A stretch of 64,000 nucleotides of DNA from Eledone cirrhosa (Eukaryota). Below, in pieces: positions 6,306-59,640 of this stretch. The stretch spans positions 238,142,001 to 238,206,000 of the forward strand of contig OZ024742.1 of NCBI GenBank assembly GCA_964016885.1, written 5' to 3'. The notes under the pieces were generated by a model, which made no database searches, was not told where the DNA came from, and saw only the letters and a program-made list of their open reading frames with translations. Numbering within the stretch: the stretch's first letter is position 1; every line of letters begins with the position of its first letter. A program made the translations under genes and the position numbers.

Positions 6306-6309
<4 letters not shown>

Positions 6310-6692
6310 AATAAATGGAAAGTATATTTATAAAACCATATTTATTTAATTATATATATTTCAAGAGCAACCAAAGCAAATGATGGTGCGCTTTCATCAG
6401 ATAAAATACAGATTTGTTTTATAAATAAATATTGACATACCCGGAAAAAAGTATTTTTTCCGGGTATGTCAATATTTATTTATAAAACAAATCTGTATTT
6501 TATCTGATGAAAGCGCACCATAATTTGCTTTGGTTGCCCTTGAAATATATATAATAAAATAAATATGGTTTTATAAATATAGTTTCCATTTATTAATATA
6601 TTGTATATTTACTCCACTTTATTGTTGAGTGCTTTATATCAGTTATAAAAATGTTTAAGCTTGTTGAATCCCAACAAATTAAATATAACCTC

Positions 6693-13949: not shown

Positions 13950-14917
13950 ACATCCCTTTCTTCATCTTTACTGAGACCCATCTCAAAAACTCACACTTGG
14001 AAGCCGAAGTGAAGGTGAGTAATTTCACAACAGTCGGCGCGGATCGTGTCGGCAGAAGGATGGGTGGAACTGTCATTTTCCTGCATGGTTCCTTTATGCA
14101 AATGGAATATCACATTCTCCGTGGTTACTGTGAATCAATCACGGTGGATAACAAAGCCAATGACTTGATATTTATTGGGCTCTTTAAAGAATTCCTCAAC
14201 AGCATTAAGTGCCATTCTGGTAACATACTTATTATGGGAGTCTTTAATCTACTCTGTGTTGATTAAAGACTCCCATCAGTTTGAAACCAAGCACTTCCTC
14301 AACAACCGCTAACAAAACAGTAGTACAGTCAATTCTAGACTTTATGGATCAGTTTTTCTTTGTCCCAACTTGTTTTTGCACCAACACGATATCAGAAAAA
14401 CGTTTTGGACTGAGTGTTTATTAACCACACTAAAATTATATATATCACAGTGGGAAAAACCATTCTGTCCATAACATGTTTCTCTGTAATCTGAGATTCC
14501 ACAAGCCGAAAGCTAAGCCAATGACCTCTCTCCAGCCCATCCATTTCATAACATGGATCTTTATAATGTCAACTGAAGTGCAATCACTAACGAGCAATCA
14601 CATCTCCACCAACATCAAAACATCTTGGCAGATATTTGCAGACACTGTCAAAAACATATGTGCAAAACACACTCCACCAAGATCTGTGAATAAAACAAAG
14701 TGCAGAATCCCAAAAATTCAAAACGTCTTTAGAGTAATTTCTCTAAGAAATCCCGAATAAACCTCCTACACCCGGATATGTCTCCATAAACAATAAATCT
14801 CTACTTGAGTCGGCCACGATGTCCAAATCCTAATTTGAGGGACTTCGCCAGCTGGTACTTTTAAGTTAGACATGGCCTGGGCCAATACCTGTCGAAACTT
14901 ATCAAAGTTATCAAAGC
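13950..14917 (+). pseudogene. LINE apurinic endonuclease / ORF2 fragment (CR1/L2-like)
   Basis: IFTETHL..ADRVGRRMGGTVIF..NILIMGVFNL, the APE motifs TETWL / DR..GGG / GDFN in decayed form. Confidence 0.75.
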
Positions 14918-14987
<70 letters not shown>

Positions 14988-14990
<3 letters not shown>

Positions 14991-15194
14991 AACCAGTAAG
15001 ACCCCGACAGCTGAGCTCAAGCCGTTTCGACGGCTAATTCTGGAGTCCAGAATTCTGAGTCCAGAATTAGCCGTCGAAACGGCTTGAGCTCAGCTGTCGA
15101 GGTCTTACTGGTTCCTATTACCCACTCTACTACCTCAAGTATTGAGTACTTTGGTGCGTTATGGTCCACCTGGTTCCTTACCACATTTCCTTCG

Positions 15195-15196
<2 letters not shown>
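14988..15196. mobile_element. Family A fold-back element
   Basis: Short antisense arm plus long sense arm, junction TCTGGAGTCCAGAATTCTGAGTCCAGA; TA-flanked. Confidence 0.85.
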
Positions 15197-15239
<43 letters not shown>

Positions 15240-15246
<7 letters not shown>

Positions 15247-16440
15247 ATACTTTAGGAGGGTCATGCTGTTCATATATTGTCAAACCTCTTACGTCACACA
15301 TTCTGTGACCTCCTCAGTGACTAATTTCTTATTTTGTGTCTCTCCTTTGTTCTGTCCTACATCATATTGTTTTTGTGAGTTGTGTGCTGTGTGCTTGGTT
15401 TGCGCATGCGTTACATCCGGGCGCGTGTGTGTGTTTATTTATTTATTTATGTGTTTATTTAATTTCACTAGTTGATTGTTTGTTCTATCTGTGTGTGTCT
15501 GGTTTCTTTAATTAGTCTGGTTTTTGTGATTTTGTGTGTGTCTGTATGTCTTCATTTTGTCCTTAATTACTAGTTGTGATGTTGCTATTCCACTCATGTT
15601 TTCTGTTTAATTTTGGTTAGAGTTCGTTTAAGTTTGCCGCCTCTGTAATTTGTCTGAGCATTGCATATTTTCTGTGTGTGGATATGATTTTTATTTCTAT
15701 GTTCTCTAATGTGCCCCTATGTTCTATTTTGGCATGTTGGTGGAGTACCAATGAATATTAAATTTTAGCTTGTCTATAGCCCTTCTAAATCTGTAAGATT
15801 GTTCGCCTCTGATGGTTGCATTGACGAACATTATACTATGAGTTGATTTTATTTATCTTTTTCTTAATCCTTTCTATTCTATTCCAAAATTTGCTCCTAT
15901 ACATGGGACAAGTCCCATTCGTATCCTTTTCTACAATCTTTGCCCATTTAGTCCTGTCTCTCTGATTGTAGCCAGAGAATTGCATGCGGTGGATGAAGTG
16001 TTGTATGTGTGTCTCTAATTCTTTAGAATTGCCCATGTGGGACACTTTCCTCATCACTCTTACTAAATCCGCAATCAGTATGTTGATTTTCATGTTATCC
16101 GAAACAGCTGAGTTTCTGTGGATCAGGTACTTGGAGGTCATGAGTTTGGCATAATGCCAATGGAGGATTTGTCTTCTAATATGAATAGTTCTAACCAGAG
16201 TTCTGTGTCTAATACAGGTAATCTATGGTTGGGATGTTTGGTTGGGTAGGCCATAGTAACTTTAATACTTTGGTGATGGAGTTAGCTATTTGCTGACTAT
16301 TTTCCTATGGGGTGTTTTTACTACGAAGTTAATGTCATCTACATAGCGGGAATACATAGTCAGGGCTATAAAATTGTCGTCTAAACGTTCCTTAAGTCTT
16401 CTGTCCCACCATACCATAAAGAAGTTAGCGCCTTCACGAA
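15240..16440 (-). mobile_element. Penelope-like element remnant (RT and GIY-YIG, internally deleted)
   Basis: Minus strand SRYVDDINF (PLE RT catalytic motif), LPVLDT, thumb region SKYLIHRNSAVSDNMKINIL; 3' end homologous to the 23195-24410 family. Confidence 0.85.
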
Positions 16441-17150
16441 ATATTATATATATATATATAATATATATATATACACTTATTCAATTGAAGAAAGATGCTT
16501 GAGTAAAAATCTGCCGACTTATTCTGAAAGAGACGTGAAGCACTCCACGGCTTTTGTTCCTTAGGATTTTCCCCTAATGTAACATCCGGAGTTTAAGTAT
16601 AATAAATAAGAGAGGCGACTTATTGTTATTAACCTCGTCGACCAGTACTCAGATGGCTAGATTTCACTTGTAGCAATTCTATTATGGGTGGAGATAGTAT
16701 TGTTGCTGGCATCGGTGATTGTAAGCAATCTGGGGTATCAGGTTGCCAAATTTGTCGCATGATTCTAAAATGGCCTGCAAGCACTGTTAATTTATTTTTT
16801 TTATATTTCCGGACTAGATTGTACTTACGTAGATTTTAATTTTAGATACATAATGATGATGTTACATTCATGAATGATTTATTGATGCTGATGTTATATT
16901 TATGAATGATTTATTAATTAATTGATGGTCTATTTTATATTACTTACAGAAGTTTTAATGATATAGTCTGCGGAAAATCTTAAATACTTTATGTAAACAA
17001 GTATTAAATATGGCAGAGCGTTTATTGATAATTTTATGCCTACTATTTATGATGTGCAAAGTCTCTGTAGTAATTGAGCAACTTTTTTGAATAACTTAAT
17101 CGATATACATTTGTTTTGTATATATTTAGAGTATATATATATATATATAT

Positions 17151-17980
17151 AAACAAGGTTTAGCAAATAATGAAAAAGTTTCAAAATAAATTTTAAAAAA
17201 TTGACTTTTCCTACTATAGTTACCTTTACCGATCGGTTTCGAATCCCAAAAATAAACGGAGACCATATGGCCTTCGTTGCAAAGAAAGATTCTCGTCAGA
17301 AGGTTCTTTTCATTCGAAGAATATAAAATTCCTGAATTTAAATTACGAACTAGCGCTATCAAAACTGTTCCTGGGATGAGAGTGGATGATGTAGAAACAG
17401 GTTTATCAAGGGCCGAAGTAAAGATAGAGACAGAAGGAGGTAGGTCAAACCAGCCGCAGCTATCACTAGCAGCAGTCGGAGCGACCAAATTTGTTCTCAA
17501 CATAGAGGAGTTGGTAATAATAGGATATGTGTTCCTTCACGCACAAGGCGCTAAGGTACGCATGTATTGTCCAACCAAATGCCAGTGTGGTTCAATGGCA
17601 GGTTAATAAATTAACGAGCCAGAACAAATATAAACAAGGTTTAGCACCCAGGAACAGTTTTGATAGCGCTAGTTCGTAATTTAAATTCAGGAATTTTATA
17701 TTCTTCGAATGAAAAGAACCTTCTGACGAGAATCTTTCTTTGCAACGAAGGCCGTATGGTCTCCGTTTATTTTTGGGATTCGAAACCGATCGGTAAAGGT
17801 AACTATAGTAGGTAAAGTCAATTTTTTTAAATTTATTTTGAAACTTTTTCATTATTTGCTAAACCTTGTTTATATTTGTTCTGGCTCGTTAATTTATTAA
17901 CCTGCCATTGAACCACACTGGCATTTGGTTGGACAATACATGCGTACCTTAGCGCCTTGTGCGTGAAGGAACACATATCC

Positions 17981-17983
<3 letters not shown>
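17151..17983. mobile_element. Family E: circularly permuted 481-nt HHR monomer plus inverted partial copy, in (TA)n
   Basis: 17151-17375 is the reverse complement of 17647-17870; 17519-17646 is the reverse complement of 17856-17983; AAACAAGGTTTAGCA repeated at 17151 and 17632. Confidence 0.85.
17718..17800 (+). ncRNA. Type I HHR (family E); second intact copy on the minus strand at 17222-17304
   Basis: ACCTT-CTGACGA-GAATC..GATTC-GAAA-CCGATCGG-TA-AAGGT; all core nucleotides present, palindromic stem III. Confidence 0.9.
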
Positions 17984-18038
<55 letters not shown>

Positions 18039-18236
18039 GATGAAGCTTCATATTTAGGTTTTTAGTGTGTATCGATCTGTTACATCTGTTACGTGCGTTT
18101 CACATATGGTTCGCTCAAGGTCACCCACAAAAGTTATGGATCCGACTGACTCAAGTATCGACCAGCTCTTCGGACTGATGATTCAACGAAGAATACAGTG
18201 TTTGTGATGGCCGGTGAAATGTCGAGAGTGAGCGGC

Positions 18237-18285
<49 letters not shown>

Positions 18286-18817
18286 CATATGTGTGTGAGT
18301 GTGTCCATTTTTTTTTAATCTGACGCCAGCCAACGTCTAGCTATATTGTGTCAACTACTTCAATATTTTAGCTGTCGGTTATACCTGCACTTCTCAAACA
18401 CGAACAAATTGGATTTCGACAATCTATTTCTTATATAATAAATTTTGGTATCAGTTATAATGTTTACAGTTGTTACAGACCTGTAGACAATATGGGGTTG
18501 GGAGGGGATGGATGTCACTACTATTATAGCAGCCGCTGTCACAACTACTATAACAGTTACTGATAAAGAGGGGAGGGAGAAGGGCGACCAACCGTTTTCG
18601 TTACTTCCTAAACTAAACTAAACATAGTGACGTGAACCTAAATTGATCAACAATTCTGCCAAAATTCTTAGTGTCATACAGGGGCCGTCAAAGAAACAAC
18701 ACCACGCGTTCGCCGGCTCCCTGTATCATGAAAAGAAAATCTTTTTTCGGAAAAGTTATTGGATTTTTCCAAATTTAAATGTTTCTTAGGAACTTTCTAT
18801 GTTTATTTTAGGTTTTG

Positions 18818-18875
18818 CCGTCTGAAGAGCTGAGGCTATCATAACTGATAGTCCTCAGTGAGATATGTATAACGG
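18818..18875 (+). ncRNA. Type I HHR with one core mutation (GAAA to GAGA)
   Basis: CCGT-CTGAAGA-GCTGAGGCTATCA..TGATAGTCCTCAGT-GAGA-TATGTA-TA-ACGG. Confidence 0.7.
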
Positions 18876-19136
18876 AGTCTTAAATAAACCTGAATATGGC
18901 CTCCGATCTTTTATTAATATATAATGGTCCGACTTGCACCATTTATACAGGTCGTTGAGCGCTTCTTTTTATCTACTTCACAACCGACAGACCATAATAT
19001 GATCAGTACGTCTCTGTTCGGTTAACTCCATAATCTCTCTATATATATGTGTGTGTGTGTTCAGAGATGGGGGGGGGAGATGCATCTTTGATAAATGGTT
19101 TGTGAGATAGGCCAGAAACATGAGATTATGAAGCAA

Positions 19137-19178
<42 letters not shown>

Positions 19179-19334
19179 GTCTATGTTTAATAGTAACAAA
19201 TCTCTTTCTGTTCCATTAGTGCCTCTTTTAGATTAAATAAACTGCTGCATGAAAGAAAAAAATTTAGACAGTTGTTATCTTTACGATTGCTTTTATCTCT
19301 TCGCTACACACACACACACATACTCACACGCGCG

Positions 19335-19566
<232 letters not shown>

Positions 19567-19839
19567 CAATGCTCCGTGAGAAAAGAAAAAAAATAGACCA
19601 ATAGGAATGCATCTACTTTCACTCTGTTTATGTAGCACTAAACAAATCCCATCGGTGTATGGACGACATCTGTAATATTCGGTTTCTCCATTAAAAGGTA
19701 ACAAAACTACTATGAGAGAGAAAGAGTGAATGATAGAGAGATGATAGAATGACAGATAATGATAGATGTATATGAACGGCATCTTAAATATTCGGTTTAT
19801 TCACCAAATGTACACAAAACTACTAATACATGCTTAATA

Positions 19840-20038
19840 AAGAAATTGCTTCTACAGCACTGGAACTGTTTCATTCAAGGGAAATCAAGAAAGCCTTTTC
19901 CTGATGATTGCTTTTGAATGAAACAGTTCTAGTTTGTAAAAGAAATTTCTATATTAAAGATGATGTTTATACTCTACCAATGTTATTGAGTACCTTACTG
20001 TAGTTACCCCCAATTGAACCCGGGATTCACATATCATA
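19840..20038. mobile_element. Family C fold-back element (older copy) with HHR
   Basis: Imperfect inverted arms about 19895; CCTGATGATTGCTTTTGAATGAAACAG; homologous to 20495-20687. Confidence 0.75.
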
Positions 20039-20066
20039 AATATATATATATATATATATATACAAT

Positions 20067-20272
20067 GATATTAAATAAATGGAAACTATATTTATAAAAC
20101 CATATTTATTTTATTATATATATTTCAAGGGTACCAAGTCACATTGGTGCGCTTTCATCCGATAAAATACAAAGTTTGTTTTATAAATAGAGACATACCC
20201 ATGAAAATCATACCTTATCGGTTGGAAATTCATTGGATAGTCGGACTTCAAACAAATTAAATACCCCTTCTA

Positions 20273-20275
<3 letters not shown>
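20067..20275. mobile_element. Family B element (antisense arm plus 3' tip)
   Basis: 20067-20200 matches 6306-6442; the end CAAACAAATTAAATA matches ~6672-6686. Confidence 0.8.
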
Positions 20276-20367
<92 letters not shown>

Positions 20368-20371
20368 ATAC

Positions 20372-20687
<316 letters not shown>

Positions 20688-21138
20688 TAAAAAAAGAAAA
20701 TATATATATATACACACAGAGACAGGGATAGAGAAACAGTGGCGGATAGAGAGACAAACAAATACAGATAGACAGGCAGGAACACACATAAATATATGTG
20801 AGAGCTATCGATATCTGTATATATATATAGTGGGAGAGACCACACCGTGTTTTGTCTTAGATTTGCGATCCAAAAATATATATATGGATTTAGGCAGACC
20901 GCTTTCGTATATCGTATGTTATGCAGACAAACAGTCCTATGCAATTATTATAGAGCGTTAATCAAATACCCCACTACCATATATGTATGTATACTACCAG
21001 ATCTCACCGGTGTTGCCCGGGTTAAATATAATAATCGAATGCCATTCAAAACTTGATATAGGATTTCTTTCTTAATATTTATTGTAATTGGTCATTTTAA
21101 CATTACTGACATAACAAATTCGGTGAGATCAACAGCAA

Positions 21139-58293: not shown

Positions 58294-59162
<869 letters not shown>

Positions 59163-59329
59163 TATATATATATAAATGTAATCTGAGTTTTTTCGAATAT
59201 TAATAACATTCGATTCGTTTGCAATTTTGCAAACAGTTTTGTGTTTAATTTCATTGTTTTAATATTTATTTATATATATACACTACCTTTACCTCCACCC
59301 CTTCCCTGTCCCTTCCACCCTCATCCGCA

Positions 59330-59640
59330 CCGCCGAGCTAGTCCGCACCCTCAACTGTTTCTCTTTCTCGTGTGAGTTCTATCAACAGGTCACCAGGGTA
59401 GCCATTGGTACAAGAATGGGTCCCAACTACGCCAACCTTTTCGTTGGCTACATTGAGGCCCGAATCTTTGCCCAATAGACTGGCCCCACTCCCGAATAAT
59501 ACGGCCGTTATATTGAGGACTGTATCAGTGCCAAGATACTCACCCAGGAACAGCTCGACTCTATTCTCTCTTTCCTCTGCTCCTTCCATTCCTCCCTCTA
59601 TTTCACCACCTCCATCTCCACCACTTCTGTTCACTTCTGT
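59330..59640 (+). pseudogene. Penelope-like RT fragment
   Basis: LNCFSFSCEFYQQVTRVAIGTRMGPNYANLFVGYIE..YGRYIEDCI (PLE G.AMG.P..A.LF and RYIDD motifs) with stops. Confidence 0.85.

What the first reader, a model, noticed from the sequence alone, without database searches (positions are those of the whole stretch)
17151..17983. Closed 481-nt hammerhead-bearing circle reconstructed from one insertion (retrozyme-like)
Seen: define X1 = 17647-17870 (contains an intact HHR), X2 = 17856-17983, and U = reverse complement of 17376-17518. The plus arm reads X1 then X2. The minus arm (17646 down to 17151) reads X2, U, X1. All three junctions of the cycle X1-X2-U-X1 are therefore present, and a 15-bp terminal redundancy (17151 and 17632) gives a period of 481 nt with one ribozyme and no credible protein. 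Known: non-LTR retrozymes and PLE pseudo-LTRs carry type I HHRs, and retrozymes form circular RNAs. Inference: this is a non-autonomous element copied from a circular or multimeric RNA into (TA)n, with a strand switch producing the inverted arm.
Basis: partly seen in the sequence, partly recalled or inferred. Interest (0 to 1): 0.85.

Follow-up and report, generated by a model that had tools for sequence, protein, structure and literature searches.

The report
Ribozyme-bearing mini Penelope-type jumping repeat
This is one of hundreds of copies of a 481-base non-coding repeat carrying a hammerhead-ribozyme motif, inserted in TA microsatellites as head-to-head or tandem copies and likely moved by the enzymes of Penelope-like retrotransposons, a known kind of genomic parasite (a retrozyme) whose circular RNA stage is plausible here but untested.

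Summary
In detail: two head-to-head arms of a 481-nt unit with a type I hammerhead (predicted cut after 17795), in (TA)n, no conserved protein. The unit belongs to a high-copy family: 1,209 exact matches to the hammerhead 3' half, arrays up to about 12 units, an 80%-identical subfamily with compensated stem II pairs. It files as an animal non-LTR retrozyme, likely a non-autonomous Penelope-like element (PLE).

Copies are not permuted: 126 of 137 arms end at one of two fixed 3' sites 111-115 nt apart, and the '15-bp terminal redundancy' is one fixed end plus one random 5' break. The inversion is not a fold-back strand switch: in 57 of 59 classifiable inverted insertions one arm ends at each site. 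This is the PLE one-sided 'tail', best explained by both cut DNA ends priming at two reverse-transcription start sites.

A circular template is plausible (units within one insertion are near-identical) but unproven: no run was on record as RNA, and linear multimers fit too. No autonomous partner was found in 70 PLE loci.

The parts
17147..17986 (.). Whole insertion: two head-to-head arms of the 481-nt unit, RNA 3' ends pointing outward into (TA)n
   Evidence: L091
17147..17646 (-). Inverted arm: X2, U, X1 and 15-19 nt more; 3' end at fixed site A (17147-17151), 5' end a random break at 17646
17647..17986 (+). Direct arm: X1 then X2; 3' end at fixed site B (17983-17986), 5' end a random break at 17647; blunt junction with the other arm
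17718..17800 (+). Type I hammerhead motif: 4-5 bp stem I, CUGACGA core, long stem II, palindromic stem III, predicted cut after A17795
17222..17304 (-). Second copy of the hammerhead, in the inverted arm (core starts at 17299; predicted cut after 17227)
   Evidence: coordinates mapped
17376..17516 (-). U, the least conserved part of the unit (66-68% identity to the 80% subfamily)
17872..17986 (+). Stretch between end sites A and B, equivalent to the PLE 'tail' (111-115 nt)
   Evidence: compared with PMC8557442 and PMC11167929
17132..17150 (.). Left (TA)n target flank
17984..18035 (.). Right (TA)26 target flank

Best explanation
This is one copy of a high-copy, non-coding 481-485-nt repeat with a type I hammerhead motif that is likely retrotransposed in trans by a Penelope-like element's reverse transcriptase and GIY-YIG endonuclease, that is, an animal non-LTR retrozyme. 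Inferred mechanism: the PLE protein binds the RNA near site A, cuts both strands of a (TA)n tract, and each DNA 3' end primes reverse transcription, one at site A and the other at site B, 111-115 nt downstream. Both sites are TA-like and could pair briefly with the target. Each cDNA runs backwards through the unit, often for more than one turn, and stops at a scattered point. The two cDNAs are then joined bluntly or by a few bases of microhomology, giving head-to-head arms with the tail on one side only; if one arm is lost or tiny, a plain truncated tandem results. The template that allows more than one turn is most likely the monomer circle made after hammerhead cleavage (about 50%); an uncleaved multimer transcript or end-to-end template jumps are the alternatives. 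Shown: the family, its arrays, the two fixed ends, their pairing, TA targeting, motif conservation. Inferred: PLE mobilisation, twin priming, cleavage, the circle.
For: Family size: 649+560 exact matches to a 23-nt hammerhead stretch, reversed control 0. First sample, 90 unique insertions from 140 loci, 137 arms: 3' ends A 74, B 52, other 11, 5' ends scattered. Of 46 inverted insertions: A+B 39, A+A 1, B+B 0, one end elsewhere 6 (39 of 40, p about 4e-11). Position-ordered second sample (37 new loci, 38 insertions, 56 arms): A 33, B 18, other 5; of 16 inverted, A+B 12, A+A 1, one end elsewhere 3 (p 0.0016). 80% subfamily (29 loci): A+B in 6 of 7 inverted, the seventh unclassified. TA-like flanks: 3' side in 39 of 43 single-arm insertions, both sides in 39 of 47 multi-arm insertions. 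The genome holds RT plus C-terminal GIY-YIG ORFs. One such family has a 3' hammerhead with palindromic stem III and two ends about 45 nt apart that join TA or other simple repeats, and L186 holds opposite-strand copies, one with each end. Literature: one-sided tail, inverted truncated copy, microsatellite bias (PMC8557442 passages); two RT start sites bounding the tail, both strands cut and extended, predicted dimer (PMC11167929). For a monomer template: within-insertion divergence 0.38% against a median 4.8% mean and 1.0% nearest between insertions, 115 private against 12 shared variant sites in 54 insertions, 1 variant site in the 12-unit insertion L061; 113 of 137 arms cross an intact cut site; folded as circles the units beat 30 shuffles at z -3.5 and -5.8. 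Two subfamily-level compensated pairs in stem II and its extension.
Against: No autonomous partner was found: no meaningful DNA or translated similarity in 50 GIY-YIG loci, and one 23-nt match in 20 more, DNA only. These 70 fetched loci cover under half of the 150 scored hits, out of 10,596 candidates. The tail is 111-115 nt, longer than the 30-40 bp in print. In vitro, Poseidon insertion did not need hammerhead cleavage, unprocessed RNA was the main substrate, and RT start sites did not differ between strands and were not homologous to the target (PMC11167929). Homogeneous arrays such as L061 and L257 could themselves supply identical-unit linear transcripts. The hammerhead is not the minimum-energy fold and is not in Rfam. 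Covariation rests on 7 related sequences (41 of 500 shuffles reach the pair count). The first sample was chosen by best match to my queries and is not random.
Confidence: 0.85

Rival explanations
1. Same element, but the template is a linear read-through transcript of a tandem array, largely uncleaved; the hammerhead is weak or dispensable and no circle is used.
For: Arrays of 9-12 near-identical units exist as possible sources. Hammerhead mutants did not affect Poseidon insertion in vitro (PMC11167929). Only 1 of 9 Xenopus retrozyme dimers cleaved in vitro (bioRxiv 10.64898/2026.07.22.740005). A few 5' ends lie at or just before the cut site while downstream sites stay intact (7 of 137, 2.6 expected, p 0.016; 3 of 56, p 0.09), as partly cleaved linear RNA would give.
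Against: Repeated passage through multimers should carry unit-to-unit differences from one insertion to the next; only 12 of 127 within-insertion variant sites were shared with three or more other insertions. The motif is kept, with compensated pairs, across 20% divergence.
Confidence: 0.35
2. The template is the linear cleaved monomer, and the RT makes multimers by jumping from its 5' end to the 3' end of the same or another monomer.
For: It predicts the same seamless, homogeneous multimers and some stops at the cut site: 10 of 13 family 5' ends abutting TA within 30 nt upstream of the anchor lay at unit positions 414-422, counted by eye in the first 100 of 229 listed matches.
Against: End-to-end jumps would be expected to leave small indels at the cut site (inference), yet 258 motif matches in the fetched loci (overlapping loci counted repeatedly) read identically through it. 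TA microhomology at positions 414-415 and 419-420 could explain the cluster.
Confidence: 0.1
3. These are only the truncated 3' ends (pseudo-LTRs) of a longer coding PLE, and the unit is not a self-propagating family.
For: Truncated PLE ends with hammerheads in (TA)n are common in this genome, and the insertion anatomy is the PLE anatomy.
Against: The unit closes on itself in arrays of up to about 12 turns with no coding DNA between turns; both the young and the 80% subfamily do this. The PLE protein matches found in the loci of 5 of the 90 insertions, using 5 PLE ORFs as queries, lay in flanking DNA 213 nt or more from the insertion, not as a continuation of the unit.
Confidence: 0.05
4. A DNA minisatellite spread by unequal exchange or fold-back repair, or an assembly artefact at this locus.
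For: Long identical arrays can arise after insertion, and inverted repeats beside microsatellites are hard to assemble.
Against: Dispersal over many contigs, fixed 3' with scattered 5' ends, the A+B pairing, and three private differences between this locus's arms.
Confidence: 0.03

Closest known systems
Animal non-LTR retrozymes (Cervera and de la Pena 2020, PMC7229834: abstract, first part of Results, Discussion read; Li, Clavereau, Pollet 2026, bioRxiv 10.64898/2026.07.22.740005: parts 1-3 of 5 read, Abstract to Discussion)
   Same: Short tandem unit, one type I hammerhead per unit, GC under 50%, no protein, dispersed monomers to multimers, PLEs present in the same genome; the circle-template model for tandem cDNA is already proposed there.
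   Different: 481-485 nt is above the 150-450 bp quoted in 2020, though inside the 51-972 bp range of 2026. Stem II is unusually long. RNA and cleavage are untested here. In the parts I read, neither paper maps two fixed 3' ends or their pairing in inverted retrozyme insertions.
Insertion units of endonuclease-bearing Penelope-like elements (Craig et al. 2021, PMC8557442, passages; Arkhipova et al. 2013, PMC3846280, passages)
   Same: 5' truncation, partial tandems, adjoining inverted truncated copy, tail at one end only, microsatellite bias that hides target duplications.
   Different: No RT or endonuclease ORF; tail of 111-115 nt rather than 30-40 bp; no sequence similarity to any autonomous PLE I examined.
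Poseidon element PAc in vitro (Frangieh et al. 2024, PMC11167929: parts 1-2 of 4 read, main text and start of Methods)
   Same: Two RT start sites bound the tail; both target strands are cut and extended; AT-rich target; start sites lie about 85-90 nt past the hammerhead cut there, 76-80 nt (site A) here.
   Different: There the start sites were not homologous to the target and did not differ between strands. Here both sites are TA-like and the two ends of one insertion nearly always use different sites.
PLE hammerheads with palindromic helix III (Cervera and De la Pena 2014, PMC4209133, passages)
   Same: Short helix I (4-5 bp), long helix II, palindromic helix III suited to dimer cleavage; the circle and more-than-unit copying idea is proposed there.
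   Different: Helix II carries an extension of about 40 nt, and helix III can form 3 bp plus a tetraloop as a monomer.

Membership tests
Animal non-LTR retrozyme | Type I hammerhead in each unit | tested here: met
   no Rfam hit
Animal non-LTR retrozyme | Tandem genomic repeats of a few hundred bp, two or more consecutive units with the motif | tested here: met
   arrays with periods of about 481-485 nt, up to 10 units in one arm
Animal non-LTR retrozyme | No encoded protein, GC under 50% | tested here: met
   GC 38.5%
Animal non-LTR retrozyme | No LTR, primer-binding site or polypurine tract | not tested
   no LTR-like arrangement in the copies mapped; PBS and PPT were not searched
Animal non-LTR retrozyme | Expressed as linear and circular monomer RNA | not testable with these tools
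   no holder on record as RNA; only contigs were available
Animal non-LTR retrozyme | Self-cleavage as monomer or dimer | not testable with these tools
   folding energy only
Animal non-LTR retrozyme | Target-site duplication, when present, longer than 4 bp | tested here: inconclusive
   both flanks are (TA)n, so a duplication cannot be read
PLE-type insertion (non-autonomous) | 5'-truncated partial tandems with an adjoining inverted copy | tested here: met
   46 of 90 and 16 of 38 insertions inverted
PLE-type insertion (non-autonomous) | Tail present at one end only | tested here: met
   57 of 59 classifiable inverted insertions; 111-115 nt, longer than described
PLE-type insertion (non-autonomous) | Sequence shared with the pseudo-LTR of an autonomous PLE | tested here: inconclusive
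   none in 70 GIY-YIG loci of 10,596 candidates
Autonomous PLE | ORF with telomerase-like RT and GIY-YIG endonuclease | tested here: not met
Viroid-like autonomous circular RNA | Exists apart from the host genome and replicates RNA to RNA | tested here: inconclusive
   genome-encoded in over a thousand motif copies; no exact match in viral contigs; RNA replication not testable

The most novel reading that the evidence does not exclude
The family is a natural read-out of the PLE integration step: one protein dimer sits on one 481-nt circular RNA at two start sites 111-115 nt apart, each subunit primes one cut DNA end, and both copy round the circle. That would explain at once the one-sided tail, the head-to-head arms and the identical multimers, and would give a compact non-coding substrate for testing how PLEs build tandem and inverted insertions.
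Probability: 0.3. Interest if true: 0.6.

Novelty: new member of a known kind. Interest (0 to 1): 0.3.

Why it matters
As a category it is known, and this genome holds several other hammerhead-bearing, TA-embedded elements. Its value is as a clean data set. It ties a tandem retrozyme to PLE insertion mechanics by its ends rather than by co-occurrence, and it puts a number on the one-sided tail (57 of 59), which constrains models of a transposition cycle that the papers I read call unresolved. It does not by itself show a circular RNA.

Tried and rejected
Rfam: 36 weak hits in 14000-21000, none a hammerhead and none in the element. Protein reading: rejected. Partner search: Pfam GIY-YIG gave 150 scored hits of 10,596 candidates; 70 fetched loci showed no real similarity; a pattern for the same stem III with a shorter stem II gave 2 matches, one a deleted family copy and one unrelated; an all-against-all comparison of flanks gave an output that was cut, and in the part I saw only unrelated neighbouring repeats. 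RNA: no RNA holder listed. Two runs of unrecorded kind were laid as contigs; the smaller covered the element but not its flanks, which expression or shallow DNA would both give, so it is no evidence. A possible transcription start at unit positions 269-276 (9 of 137 5' ends) did not repeat in the second sample (1 of 56) and was dropped. The 5' pile-up at the cut site is weak and confounded by TA microhomology. Fold-back self-priming was rejected by junction geometry. Viral contigs: 0 matches. Earlier findings: none for this genome or sequence. Literature: five searches showed no paper on this family or on paired use of the two ends in retrozymes; the library lacks most subscription papers, I read no supplements, and bioRxiv supplements are closed, so Repbase-style or supplementary family lists may already hold it.

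Full report
What is in the sequence. The region 17147-17986 is an insertion in a TA microsatellite. It has two head-to-head arms. The minus arm (17646 down to 17147) reads X2, U, X1 and 15-19 further bases; the plus arm (17647-17986) reads X1, X2. The inverted pairs are 229 nt at 99% and 130 nt at 100%, and a 19-nt direct repeat is spaced 481 nt. Three substitutions separate the X1 copies. Each arm holds a type I hammerhead motif: 4-5 bp stem I, CUGACGA core, a long stem II, GAA, a self-complementary 10-nt stem III, and a predicted cut after A17795 on the plus arm. Rfam does not detect it. The hammerhead fold lies 2.1 kcal/mol above the free minimum, and two stem III copies would form a -16.6 kcal/mol duplex, the dimer arrangement described for metazoan type I motifs (PMC4209133 passages). 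Below, q1 is 17646 on the minus arm, so the cut follows q420.

It is a large family. The unit gave 1,859 first-look candidates in the 3.0-Gb genome, and a 23-nt hammerhead stretch matches exactly 1,209 times with 0 for the reversed control. The first 100 listed matches fall into 46 clusters by my count, which suggests several hundred insertions (rough extrapolation from one contig). Tandem arrays with periods of about 481-485 nt occur, with up to 10 units in one arm. A subfamily about 80% identical has the same organisation. Between subfamilies the stretch around site A is best kept (about 90%) and U least (66-68%). Two pairs in stem II and its extension change on both sides between subfamilies; with 7 related sequences this is supportive but not strong. 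Indels between subfamilies shift any reading frame, the long frames survive in 4 and 20 of 66 full units, and Pfam finds nothing, so there is no conserved protein.

The ends are fixed at two sites, not permuted. From 140 loci I obtained 90 unique insertions and 137 arms of 30 nt or more. Their RNA-sense 3' ends lie at site A (q8-22) in 74, site B (q120-135) in 52 and elsewhere in 11; 5' ends scatter over the unit. These loci were best matches to four queries, so I took a second sample in positional order: of the 46 clusters, 9 were already analysed and left out, and the other 37 loci gave 38 insertions and 56 arms, with A 33, B 18, other 5. Both sites resemble the TA target.

Inverted insertions use one site at each end. 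Of 46 inverted insertions in the first sample, 39 have one A and one B end, 1 has A twice, none has B twice, and 6 have one end elsewhere. In the second sample the counts among 16 are 12, 1, 0 and 3; in the 80% subfamily 6 of 7 are A+B and one is unclassified, though its query ended at A. Pooled, 57 of 59 classifiable cases are A+B (p about 3e-15 against independence). The two inner 5' ends are unrelated (4 of 43 two-arm cases within 20 nt, 3.7 expected) and mostly overlap by 0-5 bases, which argues against fold-back copying. This locus is a typical case: A on the left, B on the right, blunt junction.

This is the known Penelope anatomy. PLE insertions are 5'-truncated partial tandems, often with an adjoining inverted copy and a 30-40-bp tail at one end only, with microsatellite bias (PMC8557442 passages; PMC3846280 passages). 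In vitro, a Poseidon protein cuts and extends both target strands and starts reverse transcription at two internal sites that bound the tail (PMC11167929). This genome has many such elements: 10,596 GIY-YIG candidates, 150 scored, and RT-containing ORFs up to 1,096 aa, 6 of 8 scanned also matching GIY-YIG. One family carries a 3' hammerhead with a palindromic stem III and two ends about 45 nt apart, and L186 holds opposite-strand copies, one with each end. I did not find the partner of the 481-nt unit: 70 fetched loci showed no real similarity. Mobilisation by a PLE is thus inferred from anatomy, not from shared sequence.

Circle or linear multimer. For a single monomer template: units within one insertion differ by 0.38% of compared positions (dominated by the long arrays) against a median 4.8% mean and 1.0% nearest between insertions; 115 variant sites are private and 12 shared in 54 insertions; 113 of 137 arms pass through an intact cut site; the unit folds better as a circle than 30 shuffles (z -3.5, and -5.8 for the older subfamily); and other animal retrozymes are shown circles (PMC7229834). 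Against or neutral: homogeneous arrays could be transcribed as linear multimers; Poseidon insertion did not need cleavage; only 1 of 9 Xenopus retrozyme dimers cleaved in vitro; a slight excess of 5' ends near the cut (7 of 137, p 0.016; 3 of 56, p 0.09) fits partly cleaved linear RNA and is confounded by TA microhomology. No RNA data were available. I put the circle at about 50%, a linear multimer at 35% and template jumping at 10%.

Verdict. A new member of a known kind: an animal non-LTR retrozyme that inserts like a non-autonomous PLE. The circle-template idea is in print for both retrozymes and PLEs. What goes beyond the passages I read is the long tail and the measured pairing of the two end sites, which favours two coordinated priming events per insertion. 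Earlier AI notes on other genomes describe the same inverted, one-sided-tail pattern; they are unchecked and not counted as support. Interest 0.3.

Noticed in passing
window 6308-6596: TA-embedded palindromic insertion with a different type I hammerhead motif (core at 6504, + strand); similar motifs occur in L180, L189, L231, L232 and L237, so it is probably another hammerhead-bearing mini-element family.
   Followed up: partly
window 14989-15195 and 20495-20691: Two more small fold-back insertions beside TA tracts, each with an unpaired extension of 70-80 nt on one side only, the same one-sided-tail pattern.
   Followed up: partly
window 58402-58566 and 59197-59637: C-terminal GIY-YIG fragment of a PLE (96% amino-acid identity to the L180 ORF) starting right after a TA tract, and weaker RT-like fragments nearby.
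   Followed up: no
L171:3809-6622 (-), L173:775-4062 (+), L174:2722-4629 (-), L177:2755-4299 (-), L180:2644-4074 (+): Long open PLE frames. Four carry a Cys-rich linker before the endonuclease, as described for Neptune and Nematis clades; L180 lacks it. No tree was built.
   Followed up: partly
L061:1528-7343 and L257: Inverted insertions with 10 and 9 near-identical units in one arm, far longer than the median arm; either very processive copying or expansion after insertion.
   Followed up: partly
L004:1477-2864 and L112:968-1578: Copies of different subfamilies lie about 115 and 250 bp apart in TA-rich DNA, suggesting repeated use of the same tracts.
   Followed up: no
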